From Escherichia phage vB_ESM-pEJ01: 64,000 bases of DNA. The stretch lies in the sequence record OP114734.1, one strand, 5' to 3'. The notes beneath the pieces were generated by a model, which worked only from the letters and a program-made list of their open reading frames with translations, ran no database searches and was not told the DNA's origin. Each line of letters opens with the position of its first letter. Position 1 is the first letter of the stretch. The translations under genes were made by a program, and so were the position numbers. Positions 2 through 44,937 of the stretch are shown piece by piece.

Positions 2-982
2 AGTGCACAGGTTACTCCGGCGAAAGTAGGTCAGGAATCCGAAGATGAAGTTGTAACCAAACTGATCGAAGAAGGCAAACTGGCAGAAATCGCGCATGGC
101 ATGGCTACTTCCATTGCAGAAATTCAGGAAGGCTTTAACGGTTCCAGCAATAACCCGTGGTCTGAAATGTCAATGCGTATCGACAAACAGGTTGTTGAAG
201 CGAAATCTCGCCAACTGAAAGCTCGTTACTCTATCGAAGTTGCGCAGGATCTGCGTGCTGTACACGGTATGGACGCTGACGCTGAACTGAATGCTATTTT
301 GGCTAACGAAGTTCTGTTGGAAATCAACCGTGAAATCGTTGATGTAATCAACTTTACCGCTCAGGTTGGTAAAACTGGTATGACTCAGACCGTTGGTTCT
401 AAAGCTGGTGTATTTGACCTGCAAGACCCGATCGATACTCGCGGTGCTCGTTGGGCTGGTGAATCCTTCAAATCTCTGATCTACCAGATCGACAAAGAAG
501 CTGCTGAAATCGCTCGTCAGACTGGTCGCGGTGCTGGTAACTTTGTTATCGCTTCCCGTAACGTTGTAAACATTCTGGCTTCTGCTGATCAGGGTATCAG
601 TCTTGCTATGCAGGGTGCTGCAAAAGGTCTGAATACCGACACCACTAAAGCTGTTTTCGCTGGTGTTCTGGCTGGTAAGTACAAAGTGTTCATCGACCAG
701 TATGCTCGTCAAGACTACTTCACCGTAGGTTACAAAGGCGACAACGAAATGGATGCTGGTATCTACTATGCTCCGTATGTTGCTCTGACTCCGCTGCGTG
801 CAACTGACCCGCAGTCTTTCCACCCGGTTCTGGGCTTCAAGACTCGCTATGGCATCGGTATTAACCCGTTTGCAGACAGCAAATCCCAGGCACCGTCCGC
901 TCGCATCACCTCCGGTATGTTGAGCAAAGACAGCGTAGGTAAAAACGCATACTTCCGTCGTGTATGGGTTAAAGGTTGCTAA
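2..982 (+). CDS. 23: Major capsid protein gp23, C-terminal part (5' end lies upstream of window)
   Basis: Frame open from nt 2; translation matches T4 gp23 C-terminal region; terminator and late promoter follow. Confidence 0.9.
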   Translation, partial: SAQVTPAKVGQESEDEVVTKLIEEGKLAEIAHGMATSIAEIQEGFNGSSNNPWSEMSMRIDKQVVEAKSRQLKARYSIEVAQDLRAVHGMDADAELNAILANEVLLEINREIVDVINFTAQVGKTGMTQTVGSKAGVFDLQDPIDTRGARWAGESFKSLIYQIDKEAAEIARQTGRGAGNFVIASRNVVNILASADQGISLAMQGAAKGLNTDTTKAVFAGVLAGKYKVFIDQYARQDYFTVGYKGDNEMDAGIYYAPYVALTPLRATDPQSFHPVLGFKTRYGIGINPFADSKSQAPSARITSGMLSKDSVGKNAYFRRVWVKGC

Positions 983-39671: not shown

Positions 39672-41915
39672 TTACAGCTTGCAAGATGAGCACTCGCTAG
39701 CGTCTTCCGTACCATCAGCACCATCACGCACGTTAGCGTAATACAGGGTTTTCAGACCGTAATATTGAGCAAACAACATATCATCTAACACATCAGCAAT
39801 ATCGACTTTACCAGTCTTATAAGTGCTTGGATCGTATGATGTATTGGAACTAATCGCCTGATCCACAAACTTCTGCATGATCGCTGCCAGTGTGAGATAA
39901 GGCTTGTTACCTTTCTTGATCAGTGTCCAAAGCAGGTCAATAACATCAGCATTATTCTCTACGTTCGGAATAACCTGATTAAATTGCCCTTCTTTCGATC
40001 CTTTAACCGATACAATCCCGCGAGGCGGTTCAATACCGTTTGTGCTGTTAGATACCTGAGAAGACGACTCACAAGGCATCAGCGCCGACAGTGTACTGTT
40101 ACGAATGCCATATTTTTTCAGGTCTTCGCGCAGTTCTTCCCAATCCATCTCATACACCGGATCAACCAGTTCATCTACTGTCTTTTTGTACCAGTCGATA
40201 GGAAGTTCACCGCGACCATAGCGTGTTTCGTGCATCAGTTCGCAAGCACCCTTCTCTTTAGCCAGTCGCACACTAGCCTTAATCAGAGCATATTGCAAGC
40301 GTTCAAACGTTTTATGCGTAAACTCGTTAGCGTCTTCATATGTGAAGAAATTATCTGCTAGATATGATGCAAAGTTAGTAACACCAATACCCAGAGAGCG
40401 ACGTTTTTTGGCTGTCAGAGCTTGTTCTACAGGATAATCCTGATAATCTAACAGGTTGTCAAGTGCACGCACCATAACCATAGCAATGCGTTCTACTTCT
40501 TCCATATTTTCGATATCGAAATTACCTAAAACATATGCTGCCAAAGTACATAGGCTGATCTCTGAATCATCACGCCCCATCGGTTTTGTTGGCAGCGCAA
40601 TTTCACAACACAGGTTAGATTGTTTAATCGGTGCTACATTACGAATAAACGCCCCGTGATTGTTCATGTTGTCTGTGAACGTTGGGTAGATTCGACCTGT
40701 GTTAAAACGTTCAATTGCCACCGCTAAAAACAGGTCTTCGGCTTTAACACGAGTTTTACGAACACTCGGATCTTTTTCCAGTTTTTCGTAAAGCTGGCGG
40801 AAACCTTCCTCATCTCGGAAGTATAGATCCCACAATAAGCCACCCGCAACATCTGGACTAAACAGAGTAATGTAATCCCGTTTAAGGAATCGCTCTACCA
40901 TCAGGTTATTAATCTGTACGCCGTAATCAAGATGACGAATGCGGTTATCTTCCACCCCCTTATTGTTCTTTAACACAATCAGACTTTCAAACTCTAAATG
41001 CCACATTGGGTAATAGAGAGTAGCTGCCCCGCCACGAATACCGCCTTGTGAGCATGACTTAACGGCAGTCTGAAAATGTTTCCAGAATGGGATAACGCCA
41101 GTATGACGAACTTCACCATGCCCGATCTTAGATCCTTCCGCGCGAATCATACCAGCATTGATACCGATACCAGCACGCTTGCTAATATACTTGATGATTG
41201 CATTTGCTGTTTCGTTGATGCCCTGCAATGAGTCATCACTTTCAATCACCACACACGAACTAAATTGGCGTGTTTGGGTACGCACACCTGCCATAATCGG
41301 AGTAGGCAGAGAGATTTGCTTATTCGCAACAGCATTATAAAAATCAATCACATGTTCAAGTCGATTTTCTGTCTCTTCTTGATGCAAGCACATACCGATC
41401 AGCATATACGCAAATTGCGGTGTTTCGATGATTTTCTTAGTGCTGCGATCCTGAACAAGATATTTCTCTTTTAACTGCATCGCACCAGCATAGGTCATTT
41501 TAAAATCAAGTTTATGGTCGATGAATTTCTCCAGATATTCCACTTCTTCACGGGAATATTTTTGCAGAATTTCGCGATCATATTTTCCGGTTGCAATATT
41601 ACGCTCAATATGGCTATAAAAATCAATAGGTTGGAATTGACCGTATACTGATTTACGAAGCGCGAACATTGCAAGGTTACTTGCTACATATTGATAATCA
41701 GGTGTTTCTACAGTAATGTTATCTGCGGCGACCTTAATCAATACTTTCTGGATATCATTGGTAGACATACCTTCTGTCAGAAGTGGTTCAACCATATCAA
41801 ACAATTCATATGGATCAACGTTATGACCTTCGGCTGCCGCTTCCAGAATTTTCATTACTTTTTCTTTTTCAAACGGAACAGTCAGACCGGAAGACTTAAC
41901 AACATTTTTAATCAT
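39672..41915 (-). CDS. nrdA: Ribonucleotide reductase large subunit
   Basis: 747 aa; N-terminal ATP-cone, catalytic Cys regions, C-terminal CxxC tail. Confidence 0.93.
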   Translation of the reverse strand: MIKNVVKSSGLTVPFEKEKVMKILEAAAEGHNVDPYELFDMVEPLLTEGMSTNDIQKVLIKVAADNITVETPDYQYVASNLAMFALRKSVYGQFQPIDFYSHIERNIATGKYDREILQKYSREEVEYLEKFIDHKLDFKMTYAGAMQLKEKYLVQDRSTKKIIETPQFAYMLIGMCLHQEETENRLEHVIDFYNAVANKQISLPTPIMAGVRTQTRQFSSCVVIESDDSLQGINETANAIIKYISKRAGIGINAGMIRAEGSKIGHGEVRHTGVIPFWKHFQTAVKSCSQGGIRGGAATLYYPMWHLEFESLIVLKNNKGVEDNRIRHLDYGVQINNLMVERFLKRDYITLFSPDVAGGLLWDLYFRDEEGFRQLYEKLEKDPSVRKTRVKAEDLFLAVAIERFNTGRIYPTFTDNMNNHGAFIRNVAPIKQSNLCCEIALPTKPMGRDDSEISLCTLAAYVLGNFDIENMEEVERIAMVMVRALDNLLDYQDYPVEQALTAKKRRSLGIGVTNFASYLADNFFTYEDANEFTHKTFERLQYALIKASVRLAKEKGACELMHETRYGRGELPIDWYKKTVDELVDPVYEMDWEELREDLKKYGIRNSTLSALMPCESSSQVSNSTNGIEPPRGIVSVKGSKEGQFNQVIPNVENNADVIDLLWTLIKKGNKPYLTLAAIMQKFVDQAISSNTSYDPSTYKTGKVDIADVLDDMLFAQYYGLKTLYYANVRDGADGTEDASECSSCKL

Positions 41916-41963
41916 ATTACCTCACTTCATATTTTAGTAGGAACAAGTTTTATCCTCCATATT

Positions 41964-41980
41964 GGGGGCTTTCGCCCCCC
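41964..41980. other. GC hairpin with tetraloop between td and nrdA
   Basis: GGGGGC-TTTC-GCCCCCC; T-run only on the + side. Confidence 0.4.
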
Positions 41981-41985
41981 TTTGT

Positions 41986-43206
41986 TTATACTGCCATTTG
42001 AGCGGTGATCGCTGGATGGCTTTGATAGTTGTGAATTTTAAAATCTTTCGGAGTCTTTGTCAATACCTCATCTAAAGATTTAAATTCCGGCAACTCAATT
42101 GTTGGTTTATCAAACGGAACACGGCTTAACTGTTCCATAACTTGATCAAAATGGTTTTTGTAAATGTGAGTATCTCCACCAGAGAAAATCAGTTCTCCTA
42201 CCTCAAGATCACACATTTTCGCTATGATGTGAGTTAACAGCGCATAGCTGGCGACGTTAAAGGGCAAGCCCAAAAAGCTGTCTACGCTTCGCTGAAACCA
42301 CATACAAGACAGTTTACCTTCATTGACGTAGAATTGTACGAACGGATGACATACACCCAATACAGCATTATGTGTTCCTTGTACGTTCCATGAGTCAATG
42401 ATGATACGTCGATCCGTTGGATTGTTTTTAATTTGTTCAATCACGTTTTGTAACTGGTCTTCCCAAATCTTCGGGCGATAGACATATTCTTCATCGTCTT
42501 TAGTGCTTGATGTGTCTACGTCCATACTAACAAACATCGTGGTATCCGGTGCTATAATATCCCCACCCAGATAATCACTATCAAGCAGATAACCGAAATA
42601 ACCATCATCTACCCATTCCTGGAATCCCCACAAGCAATATGCATCATTAACAAAATTAGATTGAGTCTTCCAGTGGTCTGCTACCAGAATATAATCAAAC
42701 TCTTCATAACGCATACCACGCCAGATAGCACATAAACGGTCTTCTGTGTCATTGGTTGGCGTAAAGTCTTCTACCCACGGGTGCTTAAATGTATGTGTAT
42801 ATTTGCTCTTAACGCGCTTAATTTTGATTTCACCATGTGGATGAATCGGTTTGCGTCTCCACGCCATACCATACATATTGCCGACATTATAACCATTGAA
42901 TCGCAAGGGATTCTTTTCTTTCATATCAAGACAGTTGCCGCGCCAAATATCAAAGGCTTCCTCGTCAAACTTGCCGCGTGTAATTTCCTGTAAGCGACGG
43001 CGGTCAAGTGATCCCTCCATAAACCATAGCAATTCGCCAATTACAGAGGCTGTAGCCATCTTTTTAGTGGTCAGTAATGGGAAACCCTTGCTTAAATCAA
43101 TTCGCATCTCTGCGCCGAATTTAGAGAGCGTACCTACCCCCGTGCGGTCTTCACGAGGACAGCCATTATCAAGAACATCACGCAATAGTTTCAAATATTC
43201 TTTCAT
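41986..43206 (-). CDS. td: Thymidylate synthase with a large in-frame insertion (406 aa)
   Basis: DRTGVGTLS and catalytic CHPFVQFYV core; about 120 extra residues between YGMAWRR and DQLQNVIEQIKNNPTDRRIII. Confidence 0.85.
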   Translation of the reverse strand: MKEYLKLLRDVLDNGCPREDRTGVGTLSKFGAEMRIDLSKGFPLLTTKKMATASVIGELLWFMEGSLDRRRLQEITRGKFDEEAFDIWRGNCLDMKEKNPLRFNGYNVGNMYGMAWRRKPIHPHGEIKIKRVKSKYTHTFKHPWVEDFTPTNDTEDRLCAIWRGMRYEEFDYILVADHWKTQSNFVNDAYCLWGFQEWVDDGYFGYLLDSDYLGGDIIAPDTTMFVSMDVDTSSTKDDEEYVYRPKIWEDQLQNVIEQIKNNPTDRRIIIDSWNVQGTHNAVLGVCHPFVQFYVNEGKLSCMWFQRSVDSFLGLPFNVASYALLTHIIAKMCDLEVGELIFSGGDTHIYKNHFDQVMEQLSRVPFDKPTIELPEFKSLDEVLTKTPKDFKIHNYQSHPAITAQMAV

Positions 43207-43447
43207 CCCACATCACCTTTTTCTTATTGATTGCTTTCTTACGCAGTTTTGCTACTGTCTCGTCAATGTCTATAAAGATAACACCACGGTCGAATATAGT
43301 AGCAGGTCTTGATATATCGCTATTTTCTTGCACAGGAAGCCATGATGCGCTCGCTTCATCATAGAGATATTGTAAACCGTAATAATCTACGGCTACTGCG
43401 TAGTTTTCACTGGTAGCTGACCATAATTGAATAATACCGACTTTCAT
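43178..43447 (-). CDS. Hypothetical protein (89 aa)
   Basis: ATG at MKVGIIQLW; overlaps td start. Confidence 0.45.
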   Translation of the reverse strand: MKVGIIQLWSATSENYAVAVDYYGLQYLYDEASASWLPVQENSDISRPATIFDRGVIFIDIDETVAKLRKKAINKKKVMWDERIFETIA

Positions 43448-43539
43448 TATTGTTCCCGTCCGCAATGTAAACACCGACTACCAGCAAACATCAAAGATTC
43501 ACCACAATGTTTGCACTCATAATCTGTCAGAATTTTCAT
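43447..43539 (-). CDS. Possible 30 aa zinc-ribbon peptide
   Basis: MKILTDYECKHCGESLMFAGSRCLHCGREQ (two CxxC); TAATG overlap. Confidence 0.3.
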   Translation of the reverse strand: MKILTDYECKHCGESLMFAGSRCLHCGREQ

Positions 43540-43540
43540 G

Positions 43541-44122
43541 TTACGCCTTCTTACGTTCTAAAATTTGTTCGCTGATCAGGTAATCATCAAGGAAGTAATT
43601 ATGTTCTTCTTTTGTTGCAAAGTCAAAATATAATTCCTGAATCATTTCCTTAGAGATGCCAACATCATATTCAAACAGATCATTAATTCCTGATCGTTGA
43701 ACATACGTTAACACAATACGGTCCGCAAAGTCAACTGCTTTTTCAATCAGGGAAGGTCCGCCAATAACGCTTACCAAACCTTGCAATTTCTCTATGACTT
43801 CTAATAATTCCTTCAATCCACCATCATTAGTAATCTCGGTATACACATCTGGTTGGTCGCCGTTTTTTGCTTTCGGTGCTGGCTTACTGGTATCGGTGCT
43901 AACAACCACATTCACACGACCTTCCAGTGCTTTAGGGAGACTTTCAAAGGTATTACGTCCCATTACAACCGCCGCAAGATCAACATCTCCCATAGTGCGC
44001 ATTTTAAAGTTTTCCATGTCCTTTTTGATTGGACGTCCCCACGGTAAACCGCCTTTAAAACCAAAAGCCCAATTTTCATCTGACATTTTAGTATCACCAA
44101 TCGCAAATACACATTGAATCAT
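43541..44122 (-). CDS. frd: Dihydrofolate reductase
   Basis: 193 aa, same length as T4 Frd; GGLPW and MGRNTFESLP motifs. Confidence 0.9.
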   Translation of the reverse strand: MIQCVFAIGDTKMSDENWAFGFKGGLPWGRPIKKDMENFKMRTMGDVDLAAVVMGRNTFESLPKALEGRVNVVVSTDTSKPAPKAKNGDQPDVYTEITNDGGLKELLEVIEKLQGLVSVIGGPSLIEKAVDFADRIVLTYVQRSGINDLFEYDVGISKEMIQELYFDFATKEEHNYFLDDYLISEQILERKKA

Positions 44123-44498: not shown

Positions 44499-44527
44499 AT
44501 TATACTTTGATTCTTACAAACTTGCAA
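44499..44527 (-). promoter_or_regulatory. Promoter (TTGCAA-N17-TATAAT) embedded in the 3' end of the upstream gene
   Basis: Hexamers with 17 nt spacer about 30 nt upstream of the 44467 start. Confidence 0.45.
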
Positions 44528-44937
44528 CCTAATTCTTTTTCAATTTGTTTCTGGCGCTCTATGTCCTGAGTAATTTTGTATTTGTGTTCCGGTTCGTCGA
44601 TTTCATAAGCAACGTTATTAACCGGATCATAACCATCAATTCTATACCCCAATATAGGGTATTGTCGTTTTAATTTTATATTCAAAAGCTGTTCTATTGT
44701 GTCTAGTGCAATCTTTTCGGCAGCTGATAATCCAAAACGTATTCCAAAATATTGTTTCCTCACCGCTTCCGCAAGTTCTTCTGTTAAAATTATTTGCTTC
44801 TGTTTTCTACCATACACATCAAAATATTCACTATAATCATAACACAGACCTGTGTTTCTTGCAACCTTTTTTATGTCTCTAGTTACATGGGCATGACGTT
44901 TATTAAATTCTTTCGCAATATCCAGTGAGCTAATCAT
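44500..44937 (-). CDS. Rha-like N-terminal domain protein (145 aa)
   Basis: N-terminus LDIAKEFNKRHAHVTRDIKK resembles phage Rha family; C-terminal GYRIDGYD...EIDEPEHKYK. Confidence 0.4.
   Translation of the reverse strand: MISSLDIAKEFNKRHAHVTRDIKKVARNTGLCYDYSEYFDVYGRKQKQIILTEELAEAVRKQYFGIRFGLSAAEKIALDTIEQLLNIKLKRQYPILGYRIDGYDPVNNVAYEIDEPEHKYKITQDIERQKQIEKELGCKFVRIKV

What the first reader, a model, noticed from the sequence alone, without database searches (positions are those of the whole stretch)
41986..43206. Thymidylate synthase with a ~120-residue in-frame insertion
The protein has the normal N-terminal and catalytic-Cys core, but about 120 extra residues lie between YGMAWRR and DQLQNVIEQIKNNPTDRRIII, where T4 Td has roughly 10-20. 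The insertion is in frame with no stop codons and does not start with Cys/Ser or end in His-Asn, so an intein or intron is unlikely. It is at a different site from the T4 td intron. It may be an extra domain on a surface loop.
Basis: seen in the sequence. Interest (0 to 1): 0.45.

Follow-up and report, generated by a model that had tools for sequence, protein, structure and literature searches.

The report
Thymidylate synthase carrying decayed homing-endonuclease domain
The phage's thymidylate synthase gene really does carry a 132-residue extra domain in one surface loop, and that domain is a worn-down, in-frame copy of a selfish "homing endonuclease" module that many phage thymidylate synthases carry at the same spot.

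Summary
ORF 41986..43206 (-) encodes a 406-aa Td of an RB49-like (Krischvirus) phage. One block of 132 residues (aa 118-249) lies between R117 and D250, where E. coli ThyA has 10 residues and T4 Td has 5. All catalytic residues are intact.

It is not an intron or an intein. There is no Rfam hit and no splice-junction residues, and the insert has a dN/dS of about 0.2. AlphaFold2 models it with high confidence.

It is homologous (E 7e-15) to the divergent HNH-like module of the "IPA-HNH" putative homing endonucleases (ICP1 gp59 type).

At least 84 diverse thymidylate synthases, phage-encoded wherever I checked context, carry this module in frame. Nearly all have it at the same loop, and most have longer (200-285 aa) versions.

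The Krischvirus copy is truncated and has lost the family's invariant D-K-D, Tyr and Cys residues, so it is probably nuclease-dead. It is nevertheless fixed in all 58 Krischvirus genomes and also kept in more distant T4-like phages.

Best reading: an old in-frame endonuclease invasion, now a retained, possibly exapted, structural domain of an active enzyme. No paper I searched describes it. Interest is moderate.

The parts
41986..43206 (-). td gene: thymidylate synthase, 406 aa plus stop codon
   Evidence: ORF. PF00303 scores 283.8 bits. TIGR03284 scores 284.5 bits against a cut-off of 108. 99-100% identical to annotated td genes of Krischvirus phages.
42856..43206 (-). N-terminal part of the TS core, aa 1-117, ending in YGMAWR
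   Evidence: Aligns to E. coli ThyA 1-99 and T4 Td 1-114. R21, K48, E58, W88 (Ec W80) and Y112 (Ec Y94) are conserved.
42460..42855 (-). In-frame insert, aa 118-249 (132 aa)
   Evidence: Single-block gap against E. coli and T4. AF2 pLDDT is about 79-97 per 10-residue block in the full-length model. dN/dS is 0.08-0.47 among 7 Krischvirus genes. GC 0.41 equals the genome average of 0.40.
42502..42702 (-). Degenerate IPA-HNH-like module inside the insert (aa 169-235)
   Evidence: hmmsearch of the insert against a 67-sequence module profile that contains no short-form inserts: E 7.4e-15, 44 bits, profile positions 25-92. The insert family profile against ICP1 gp59 gives hhalign probability 98%, E 2e-13.
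42571..42585 (-). L-D-S-D-Y (aa 208-212): degenerate counterpart of the family-invariant L-D-K-D-Y motif
   Evidence: D-K-D is invariant in the 67-sequence module alignment. The window has D-S-D, and all short-form inserts lack the Lys.
42532..42558 (-). I-I-A-P-D-T-T-M-F (aa 217-225): counterpart of the family motif Y-S-x-x-T-C-x-F, with Tyr replaced by Ile and Cys by Thr
   Evidence: Profile alignment. Conservation table.
41989..42459 (-). C-terminal part of the TS core, aa 250-406, starting at DQLQ and containing the catalytic Cys286-His287
   Evidence: Aligns to E. coli 110-264. R266, R267, C286, H287, Q305, R306, S307, D309, N317, H347 and Y349 are all conserved.
39672..41915 (-). nrdA (ribonucleotide reductase large subunit), immediately downstream of td
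   Evidence: ORF. Annotated as nrdA in matching phage records. This is the T4-type frd-td-nrdA order.
43541..44122 (-). frd (dihydrofolate reductase), upstream of td
   Evidence: ORF. phrog_316 dihydrofolate reductase, E 3e-42. Annotated frd in matching records.

Best explanation
The gene encodes a functional phage thymidylate synthase (dUMP to dTMP). Its surface loop between E. coli positions 99 and 110 carries a translated, non-spliced, independently folded 132-residue domain.

That domain is a truncated, degenerate descendant of the divergent HNH-like nuclease module of IPA-HNH-type homing endonucleases. These are selfish genes that normally sit beside or inside essential phage replication genes.

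The most likely history is as follows. An endonuclease module entered a phage td gene in frame at a permissive loop, and longer versions still occupy that loop in many phage TS genes. In the T4-like lineage leading to Krischvirus it lost three things: its N-terminal beta-rich module, its C-terminal extension, and the family-invariant D-K-D, Tyr and Cys residues. It therefore no longer cuts DNA.

The remnant is kept under purifying selection as a structural, possibly exapted, appendage of the enzyme.

Shown here: the single-block insertion, an intact TS catalytic set, homology to the module family, loss of the invariant residues, purifying selection, and fixation in the genus. Inferred: nuclease inactivity, origin by endonuclease invasion, and that the enzyme is active with the insert in place.
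For: The insertion is a single block and every TS catalytic residue is retained. PF00303 and TIGR03284 score above their cut-offs.

No intron-like RNA is found. There are no intein junction residues.

The insert matches an independent 67-sequence module profile at E 7.4e-15. Longer TS inserts match PHROG 'HNH endonuclease' families: phrog_2081 at 1.7e-33 and phrog_953 at 1e-25.

The TS-insert profile against ICP1 gp59, the prototype IPA-HNH HEG of Barth et al. 2023 (PMC10055350), gives hhalign probability 98%, E 2e-13.

The profile search of 1.84 billion representatives finds 9984 relatives. Of the 165 proteins I classified, 84 are TS with the module, nearly all between TS-HMM positions 118-124.

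The family-invariant D-K-D, Tyr and Cys are replaced in the window and in every short-form insert.

Insert dN/dS is about 0.2. The insert is present in all 58 Krischvirus records. It is also present in more distant T4-like contigs with frd-td-nrdA synteny whose TS is only 55-60% identical.

AF2 gives pLDDT 91.8 and pTM 0.90 with the insert well ordered. Insert GC equals the genome's.

The closest structural relatives of the insert model are other phage TS inserts and phage proteins named homing endonucleases.
Against: No experiment shows that this Td is active, or that IPA-HNH modules are nucleases at all. Barth et al. state that homing of their HEGs is unverified.

Long retention of the short form under purifying selection fits exaptation as well as 'relic'.

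The direction of evolution is inferred, not shown. The TS insert could in principle be the source of the free-standing modules, and the short forms ancestral to the long ones.

Confidence: 0.72

Rival explanations
1. Exapted functional domain. The remnant has acquired a new role for Td. It might bind DNA or RNA, which would tether dTMP synthesis to replicating DNA or regulate td expression. It might instead dock Td to partners of the T4-type dNTP-synthesising complex. Under this reading selection acts on that role, not merely on fold integrity.
For: The short form is kept with dN/dS about 0.2. It is fixed in 58 of 58 Krischvirus records. It is shared with T4-like phages whose TS core is only 55-62% identical, and in these CLWGFQEWVD and GDI(I/L)APDT remain nearly invariant even though the nuclease-type residues are gone. 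It adopts a confident, fixed orientation on the core, with pTM 0.90. Relatives are often annotated as DNA-binding proteins.
Against: No binding partner or nucleic-acid site is identified. The N-terminal beta module and the C-terminal extension of the long forms are missing from the short form. Conservation may simply reflect the need to keep a large loop insertion folded so that it does not poison an enzyme the phage needs.
Confidence: 0.2
2. Still-active selfish element. The embedded module is a working sequence-specific nuclease or nickase expressed as part of Td. It cuts insert-less td alleles of co-infecting phages and drives its own spread or excludes competitors.
For: The module family is associated with homing-endonuclease-like genes next to essential genes. 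Inserted and uninserted TS occur in the same TS clade: the P0017 core is 84% identical to uninserted P0095 but at most 62% to any other inserted TS. A second, different insertion site exists in an Enterococcus phage TS.
Against: In the window the invariant D-K-D is D-S-D, and Tyr, Cys and Asn of the motif are also replaced. The parts present in long forms and free-standing relatives are absent. No insert-less Krischvirus allele exists in the collection to serve as a target. Composition is fully ameliorated.
Confidence: 0.05
3. Removable element. The insert is an intein, or an in-frame intron, that is taken out before or after translation, so the mature Td is of normal size.
For: Phage td and nrd genes are classic hosts for introns and inteins: T4 td carries a group I intron with I-TevI, and inteins in nrdA are noted. 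The insert interrupts a conserved enzyme.
Against: No Rfam family matches at E<=1 on either strand. The frame is open and evolves with dN/dS about 0.2. Junction residues are R118 and E249/D250, not Cys/Ser ... His-Asn/Cys-Ser-Thr, in the window and in 20 homologues. No Hint/intein Pfam domain is found. AF2 packs the insert against the core with high confidence.
Confidence: 0.02

Closest known systems
IPA-HNH putative homing endonucleases (ICP1 gp59, gp115-116, gp209; Barth, Dunham & Seed 2023, PMC10055350)
   Same: The same divergent HNH-like module: W..M..RCY ... W..F..F..D ... LDKDY ... YS..TC.F ... N. The TS-insert family profile aligns to gp59 residues 26-169 at hhalign probability 98%. 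The window insert hits the module profile at E 7e-15. Like other HEGs, the module associates with essential nucleotide and replication genes.
   Different: Here the module is not a free-standing gene. It is fused in frame inside an enzyme. It has no AP2 DNA-binding domain. It lacks the N-terminal beta module and the invariant D-K-D, Tyr and Cys residues. It is fixed, not variably present, in the genus. The paper does not mention thymidylate synthase and states that T4 lacks IPA-HNH genes.
T4 td group I intron with I-TevI (GIY-YIG homing endonuclease)
   Same: A selfish endonuclease element lodged inside a T4-type phage td gene in conserved coding sequence. The gene order frd-td-nrdA is the same.
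   Different: The T4 element is an RNA intron after codon 183, which is window G313. It is spliced out, and the endonuclease is a separate ORF of another family. The window insert is 63 codons upstream, has no intron RNA signature and stays in the protein.
Inteins with nested homing endonuclease domains
   Same: An endonuclease-type domain sits in frame inside a host protein at a conserved site, translated as one polypeptide.
   Different: There is no Hint splicing domain and no nucleophile or His-Asn junction residues. The insert is therefore expected to remain in the mature protein.
Known length variation of the TS 'small domain' (L. casei 50-residue insert; eukaryotic inserts), from my knowledge of the TS structural literature
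   Same: The insertion lies in the most length-variable surface region of the TS fold. Uninserted relatives already vary from 5 to 34 residues at exactly this loop.
   Different: The L. casei insert lies before the YG.QWR motif, while this one lies after it. Those inserts are short helical elaborations. This one is a 132-residue autonomous domain of foreign, mobile-element ancestry.
Free-standing HEGs that split phage nucleotide-metabolism genes (e.g. mobE-type insertions in nrd genes)
   Same: HEG-type sequence invades essential dNTP-synthesis genes. A related T4-like contig with a short-insert td also has nrdA split by a free-standing I-HmuI-NUMOD-like ORF.
   Different: Those insertions break the host gene into two polypeptides. 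Here the host reading frame runs straight through the inserted module.

Membership tests
Thymidylate synthase ThyA/Td (PF00303, EC 2.1.1.45) | Profile match above the curated threshold | tested here: met
   PF00303 scores 283.8 bits against a cut-off of 24.3. TIGR03284 scores 284.5 against 108.35. The match is split in two by the insert.
Thymidylate synthase ThyA/Td (PF00303, EC 2.1.1.45) | Catalytic Cys and the phosphate-, dUMP- and folate-binding residues (E. coli R21, E58, W80, Y94, R126, R127, C146, H147, Q165, R166, S167, D169, N177, H207, Y209) | tested here: met
   All are conserved at window R21, E58, W88, Y112, R266, R267, C286, H287, Q305, R306, S307, D309, N317, H347 and Y349. Asn, not Asp, at the N177 position fits dUMP rather than dCMP specificity (from my knowledge of the family).
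Thymidylate synthase ThyA/Td (PF00303, EC 2.1.1.45) | Enzymatic conversion of dUMP to dTMP | not testable with these tools
   Needs an enzyme assay or complementation of a thyA mutant.
IPA-HNH homing endonuclease (Barth et al. 2023) | Homology to the divergent HNH-like domain of ICP1 gp59/gp115/gp209 | tested here: met
   TS-insert profile A3 against gp59: hhalign 98%, E 2e-13. Window insert against module profile A4: E 7.4e-15. The pairwise window-gp59 BLASTP is only E 0.03.
IPA-HNH homing endonuclease (Barth et al. 2023) | Family-invariant residues of the module (R, W, D-K-D, Y; near-invariant C, T-C, N) | tested here: not met
   The window has D-S-D, Ile for Tyr, T-T for T-C, Asp for Asn and R-Y-E for R-C-Y.
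IPA-HNH homing endonuclease (Barth et al. 2023) | C-terminal AP2 DNA-binding domain | tested here: not met
   No AP2 or other Pfam domain is found in the insert. The insert ends 14 residues after the module and runs into the TS core.
IPA-HNH homing endonuclease (Barth et al. 2023) | Free-standing gene, variably present among close relatives | tested here: not met
   The module is in frame inside td and present in all 58 Krischvirus records.
IPA-HNH homing endonuclease (Barth et al. 2023) | Site-specific DNA cleavage and homing | not testable with these tools
   Not verified even for the prototypes, according to the paper.
Canonical HNH / beta-beta-alpha-Me nuclease (PF01844, PF13392) | Profile match or recognisable His-Asn-His catalytic motif | tested here: not met
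   No HNH Pfam hit for the window protein, the long inserts or 67 module sequences. No PDB sequence hit.
Canonical HNH / beta-beta-alpha-Me nuclease (PF01844, PF13392) | Fold similarity to solved HNH enzymes | tested here: inconclusive
Intein | Cys/Ser(/Ala) as first residue, His-Asn as last residues, Cys/Ser/Thr at +1 | tested here: not met
   The first residue after the conserved W-R is R118. The last are W248-E249, followed by D250. No such residues are conserved at the junctions in 20 insert-bearing homologues.
Intein | Hint/splicing domain | tested here: not met
   No intein or Hint Pfam family at E<=1, nor at E<=10 for the long inserts.
Group I / group II intron | Match to an intron covariance model; interruption of the reading frame | tested here: not met
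   No Rfam match at E<=1 in 41500-43700 on either strand. The frame is continuous. Substitutions follow a coding pattern.
L. casei-type TS small-domain insertion | Insertion between the I-W-D-E-W helix and the G-D-L-G-x-x-Y-G motif | tested here: not met
   The window insert lies after Y-G-M-A-W-R, between E. coli positions 99 and 110. L. casei chains align 162-316 to window 250-406, so their extra residues lie upstream of that point.

The most novel reading that the evidence does not exclude
The long (200-285 aa) modules embedded at this loop in dozens of phage thymidylate synthases may be active homing endonucleases that need no intron and no intein. They would be translated as a tolerated domain of the host enzyme, a 'splice-free' way for a selfish nuclease to live inside an essential gene. 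The Krischvirus insert would then be a domesticated survivor of such an element that now does something useful for Td, for example nucleic-acid or partner binding.
Probability: 0.25. Interest if true: 0.75.

Novelty: new variant of a known kind. Interest (0 to 1): 0.5.

Why it matters
Thymidylate synthase is one of the most conserved and best-studied enzymes. Phage td is also the textbook host of a mobile intron. This window shows a third way for endonuclease-type sequence to reside in td: fused in frame into a surface loop and kept in the protein.

The pattern is broad. At least 84 TS sequences I classified carry the module, 67 of them 50%-identity cluster representatives, and nearly all have it at one loop.

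The Krischvirus copy offers a tractable E. coli phage system (RB49, Phi1, JSE) for three questions. Can a large foreign domain be tolerated by TS? Has a decayed selfish domain been exapted? Does the uncharacterised IPA-HNH module bind or cut DNA?

There is also a practical point. Some relatives are mis-annotated as 'HNH endonuclease' or 'hypothetical protein' although they are TS genes.

Tried and rejected
1. Intron. An Rfam scan at E<=1 over 41500-43700 on both strands gave nothing. Rejected.

2. Intein. Junction residues and Pfam gave no support. Rejected.

3. Word-indexed search. Searching the protein database with the 131-aa insert alone returned only 1 candidate and no hit. That index does not work for this fragment, and one of the three searches was wasted. 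The full-length query and the exhaustive profile search did work.

4. Naming the domain from curated libraries. Pfam, NCBIfam and PDB sequence searches with single sequences and with two profiles gave nothing. Only PHROGs and a literature lead named it.

6. Clean insertion/excision footprint. I compared the closest inserted/uninserted pair, P0017 and P0095. The flanks are only about 76% identical at the DNA level, and the uninserted allele has its own unrelated 34-aa filler, so no footprint is visible. Parsimony on a core tree gave only 3 state changes, with a biased sample of uninserted TS. That is suggestive of gain or loss, not proof of mobility.

7. Recent acquisition. Insert GC and GC3 match the genome, so there is no sign of it.

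8. Literature. Searches for a prior description of an insertion in RB49-type Td found none. The 2002 RB49 genome paper is not held, so a passing mention there cannot be excluded.

Full report
**What the window is.** The 3.2 kb around the finding is 96-99% identical to RB49-like coliphages, genus Krischvirus, family Straboviridae. The gene order is frd (43541..44122), a small ORF (43178..43474), td (41986..43206) and nrdA (39672..41915), all on the minus strand. This is the T4-type arrangement.

**Checking the observation.**
- The ORF is uninterrupted and 406 aa long.
- Pfam PF00303 matches in two stretches, and PDB thymidylate synthases align only to aa 1-82 and 250-406.
- I took E. coli thyA and T4 td from database records, spliced T4 td computationally, and aligned all three.
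- The extra residues form one block. Window R117 equals E. coli R99 and T4 R114. Window D250 equals E. coli D110 and T4 D120.
- Between those points the window has 132 residues, E. coli 10 and T4 5.
- Every catalytic or ligand-binding residue I checked is conserved: R21, E58, W88, Y112, R266, R267, C286, H287, Q305, R306, S307, D309, N317, H347 and Y349.
- The T4 intron sits after codon 183, which is window G313.
- All 58 Krischvirus records with a full-length match carry the insert, so it is not an assembly artefact.

**Is it removed?**
- No Rfam family matches at E<=1 on either strand.
- The junction residues (R118; W248-E249, then D250) are not intein-like in the window or in 20 homologues, and no Hint domain is found.
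- Among seven Krischvirus td genes, the insert shows dN/dS of 0.08-0.47, typically about 0.2. This is close to the 0.15-0.19 of the TS core in divergent pairs. The counts are small (1-13 substitutions per class per pair).
- AlphaFold2 on a 51-sequence alignment gives mean pLDDT 91.8 and pTM 0.90. The insert is as well ordered as the core, with helices at 153-167, 177-189 and 195-200 and strands at 126-130, 206-209, 224-227 and 241-245.
- The insert's GC content (0.41) equals the genome's (0.40).
- Taken together, the insert is translated and stays in the protein. This is a strong inference, not an experiment.

**What the insert is.**
- tblastn with the insert alone found, besides Krischvirus, the TS genes of Klebsiella jumbo phage phiKp_21 (517 aa, annotated hypothetical) and Vibrio phage D148 (477 aa, annotated 'HNH endonuclease'). 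Both have longer inserts at the same loop.
- Those long inserts hit PHROG families labelled HNH endonuclease: phrog_2081 at 1.7e-33, phrog_953 at 1e-25 and phrog_374 at 2e-20. They hit nothing in Pfam or NCBIfam.
- A full-length search of the large protein collection gave 17 insert-bearing TS of 401-613 aa ahead of ordinary TS of 276-300 aa.
- An exhaustive profile search with 15 aligned inserts found 9984 representatives at E<=1e-3 and 3087 at E<=1e-10.
- I classified the top 148 new representatives plus the 17 found earlier. Of these 165 proteins, 84 are TS carrying the module, nearly all between TS-profile positions 118-124, which is this very loop. The other 81 are free-standing proteins of 169-724 aa, several of them (e.g. 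P0129, P0132-P0135, P0141, P0148) with tandem modules plus AP2-like segments.
- The module consensus is W..M..RCY...V..RW..F..F..D...LDKDY...YS..TC.F...N. R, W, D-K-D and Y are invariant in 67 diverse sequences.

**The literature link.**
- One free-standing relative is the ORF just downstream of the ICP1 DNA polymerase gene. I identify it with gp59 of Barth, Dunham and Seed from that position and its HNH-like-plus-AP2-like architecture.
- Barth, Dunham and Seed (2023, PMC10055350) describe gp59, gp115-116 and gp209 as 'IPA-HNH' putative homing endonucleases. These have an N-terminal HNH-like domain too divergent for the Pfam HNH_3 profile, plus a C-terminal AP2 domain. They are enriched in, among others, the Barbaviruses and sit near DNA polymerase, RNR and terminase genes.
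- My tblastn recovered the same Rheinheimera (Barba) phages.
- The TS-insert profile aligns to gp59 residues 26-169 with hhalign probability 98%, E 2e-13.
- The window's own insert matches a module profile built without any short-form insert at E 7.4e-15.
- That paper never mentions thymidylate synthase and says T4 lacks IPA-HNH genes.
- The other literature searches found no description of the insertion. The 2002 RB49 genome paper is not in the library.

**How the window's copy differs from the family.**
- It is a short form (132 aa against 196-284 aa). It lacks the N-terminal beta-rich module (G.Y.V.GK...F..TG...KD...GVGYLG) and the C-terminal extension (NKSLNGGG...FYS...LQ..RG) of the long forms.
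- In the retained core, the invariant D-K-D is D-S-D (aa 209-211). Y-S..T-C is I-A..T-T. The following Asn is Asp. R-C-Y is R-Y-E.
- All other short forms (P0002-P0006, P0013) have also lost the Lys.
- By contrast, CLWGFQEWVD and GDI(I/L)APDT are nearly invariant among the short forms.
- Short forms occur in T4-like contigs with gp59-gp32-frd-td-nrdA or frd-td-nrdA-nrdB synteny whose TS is only 55-60% identical to the window's.
- The truncated, motif-less version is therefore old and stably maintained.

**Fold.**
- Foldseek against the PDB gives only chance matches.
- Against predicted viral structures, the best hits are other insert-bearing phage TS and phage proteins, some of them named homing endonucleases or DNA-binding proteins.

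**Is the insert mobile?** The evidence is suggestive only.
- P0017 (559 aa) has a TS core of the ordinary 'MALPPCH' type. It is 84% identical to uninserted P0095 and at most 62% identical to any other inserted TS.
- An Enterococcus phage TS carries the same module at a different site, the L. casei small-domain site.
- Against this, the P0017/P0095 flanks are only about 76% identical in DNA, and the uninserted allele has an unrelated 34-aa filler, so no clean footprint is visible.
- Parsimony on a core tree gave only three state changes, with a biased sample of uninserted TS.
- This loop is length-variable in TS even without the module: 5, 10, 28 and 34 residues in close relatives.

**Most likely mechanism.** The gene makes an active thymidylate synthase with a permanently attached, independently folded domain on a tolerant surface loop. 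That domain descends from an IPA-HNH-type endonuclease module that entered td in frame. In the Krischvirus lineage it has lost the residues and accessory parts expected for DNA cleavage. It is kept either because the enzyme now needs it to fold or because it has gained a new role. I put 0.72 on this overall picture. Within it, roughly a fifth of the probability goes to a real exapted function rather than mere structural retention. An active nuclease (0.05) or a spliced element (0.02) is unlikely.

**Verdict.** The added value is the identity of the domain and the discovery that it is one instance of a widespread, apparently undescribed pattern: IPA-HNH modules fused in frame into one loop of phage thymidylate synthases. 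The gene itself has long been annotated as td. I rate it a new variant of a known kind, with interest 0.5.

Noticed in passing
window ~42157-42447 (td aa ~254-350); loci L006-L011: The C-terminal TS core of Krischvirus td exists in two allele types, window/RB49/Phi1 versus JSE/KFS-EC/Skers/LF73P4, with dS about 0.4 between them. The N-terminal core, the insert and the last ~55 aa are nearly identical across all seven. This looks like a recombination or gene-conversion tract whose 5' end abuts the C-terminal junction of the insert.
   Followed up: partly
window ~42685-42696 (td aa ~171-174); L006, L008, L009: There is a 4-codon indel polymorphism inside the insert. The window, JSE, LF73P4 and Phi1 have ..EEFD-[Y/C]I.., while RB49, KFS-EC and Skers have ..EEFDSEYN[L/Q]F... 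The insert tolerates small length changes at the position where the family's R-C-Y...G-V segment has been deleted.
   Followed up: no
proteins P0142, P0144, P0214, P0226, P0248, P0250, P0255, P0268: Some long-insert thymidylate synthases have a second, smaller insertion (~5-70 aa) at TS-profile position ~173, roughly the hairpin after the catalytic Cys strand. Its nature was not examined.
   Followed up: no
L004:2090-3565 (Enterococcus phage 163): A 491-aa TS of a Herelleviridae phage carries the same W..M..R / LDKDY module, plus an HTH-like segment, at a different site: between I-W-D-S-W and G-x-L-G-K-A-Y-G, the L. casei small-domain site. This indicates independent insertion events into TS.
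   Followed up: partly
L002:2638-4071 (Vibrio phage D148); L001:2455-4008 (Klebsiella phage phiKp_21): Insert-bearing TS genes are mis-annotated in public records as 'HNH endonuclease' and 'hypothetical protein'. The D148 protein also deviates at several TS core motifs (for example L-K-D-A-H-T-Y for G-G-D-T-H-I-Y), so it may not be a plain TS.
   Followed up: no
L018:4689-7876: In a T4-like metagenomic contig with a short-insert td, nrdA is split into two ORFs by a 237-aa free-standing ORF with a faint I-HmuI NUMOD-like hit. This is a classical HEG-split gene right next to the td that carries the embedded module.
   Followed up: no
window 41964-41979: A perfect GC hairpin, GGGGGC-TTTC-GCCCCC, lies in the 70-nt gap between the td stop and the nrdA start. 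The T-run follows it only on the plus strand, whereas both genes are on the minus strand. A 'terminator' feature is listed among the annotations under the matching 3.2-kb region of phage G37-3.
   Followed up: no
window 44500-44937 (-): A 145-aa ORF upstream of the frd region has an N-terminal Rha/anti-repressor-like DNA-binding segment (PHROG E ~5e-5). Its C-terminal half contains G-Y-R-I-D-G-Y ... Y-E-I-D-E-P-E-H, which to my eye resembles a small nuclease motif. This may be another selfish-element-type gene. Not tested.
   Followed up: no
window 43178-43474 (-): The 98-aa ORF upstream of td overlaps the td start by 29 nt. It belongs to a PHROG of unknown function (phrog_16012, E 1e-59). The same overlap is annotated in RB49, JSE, Phi1 and others.
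   Followed up: no
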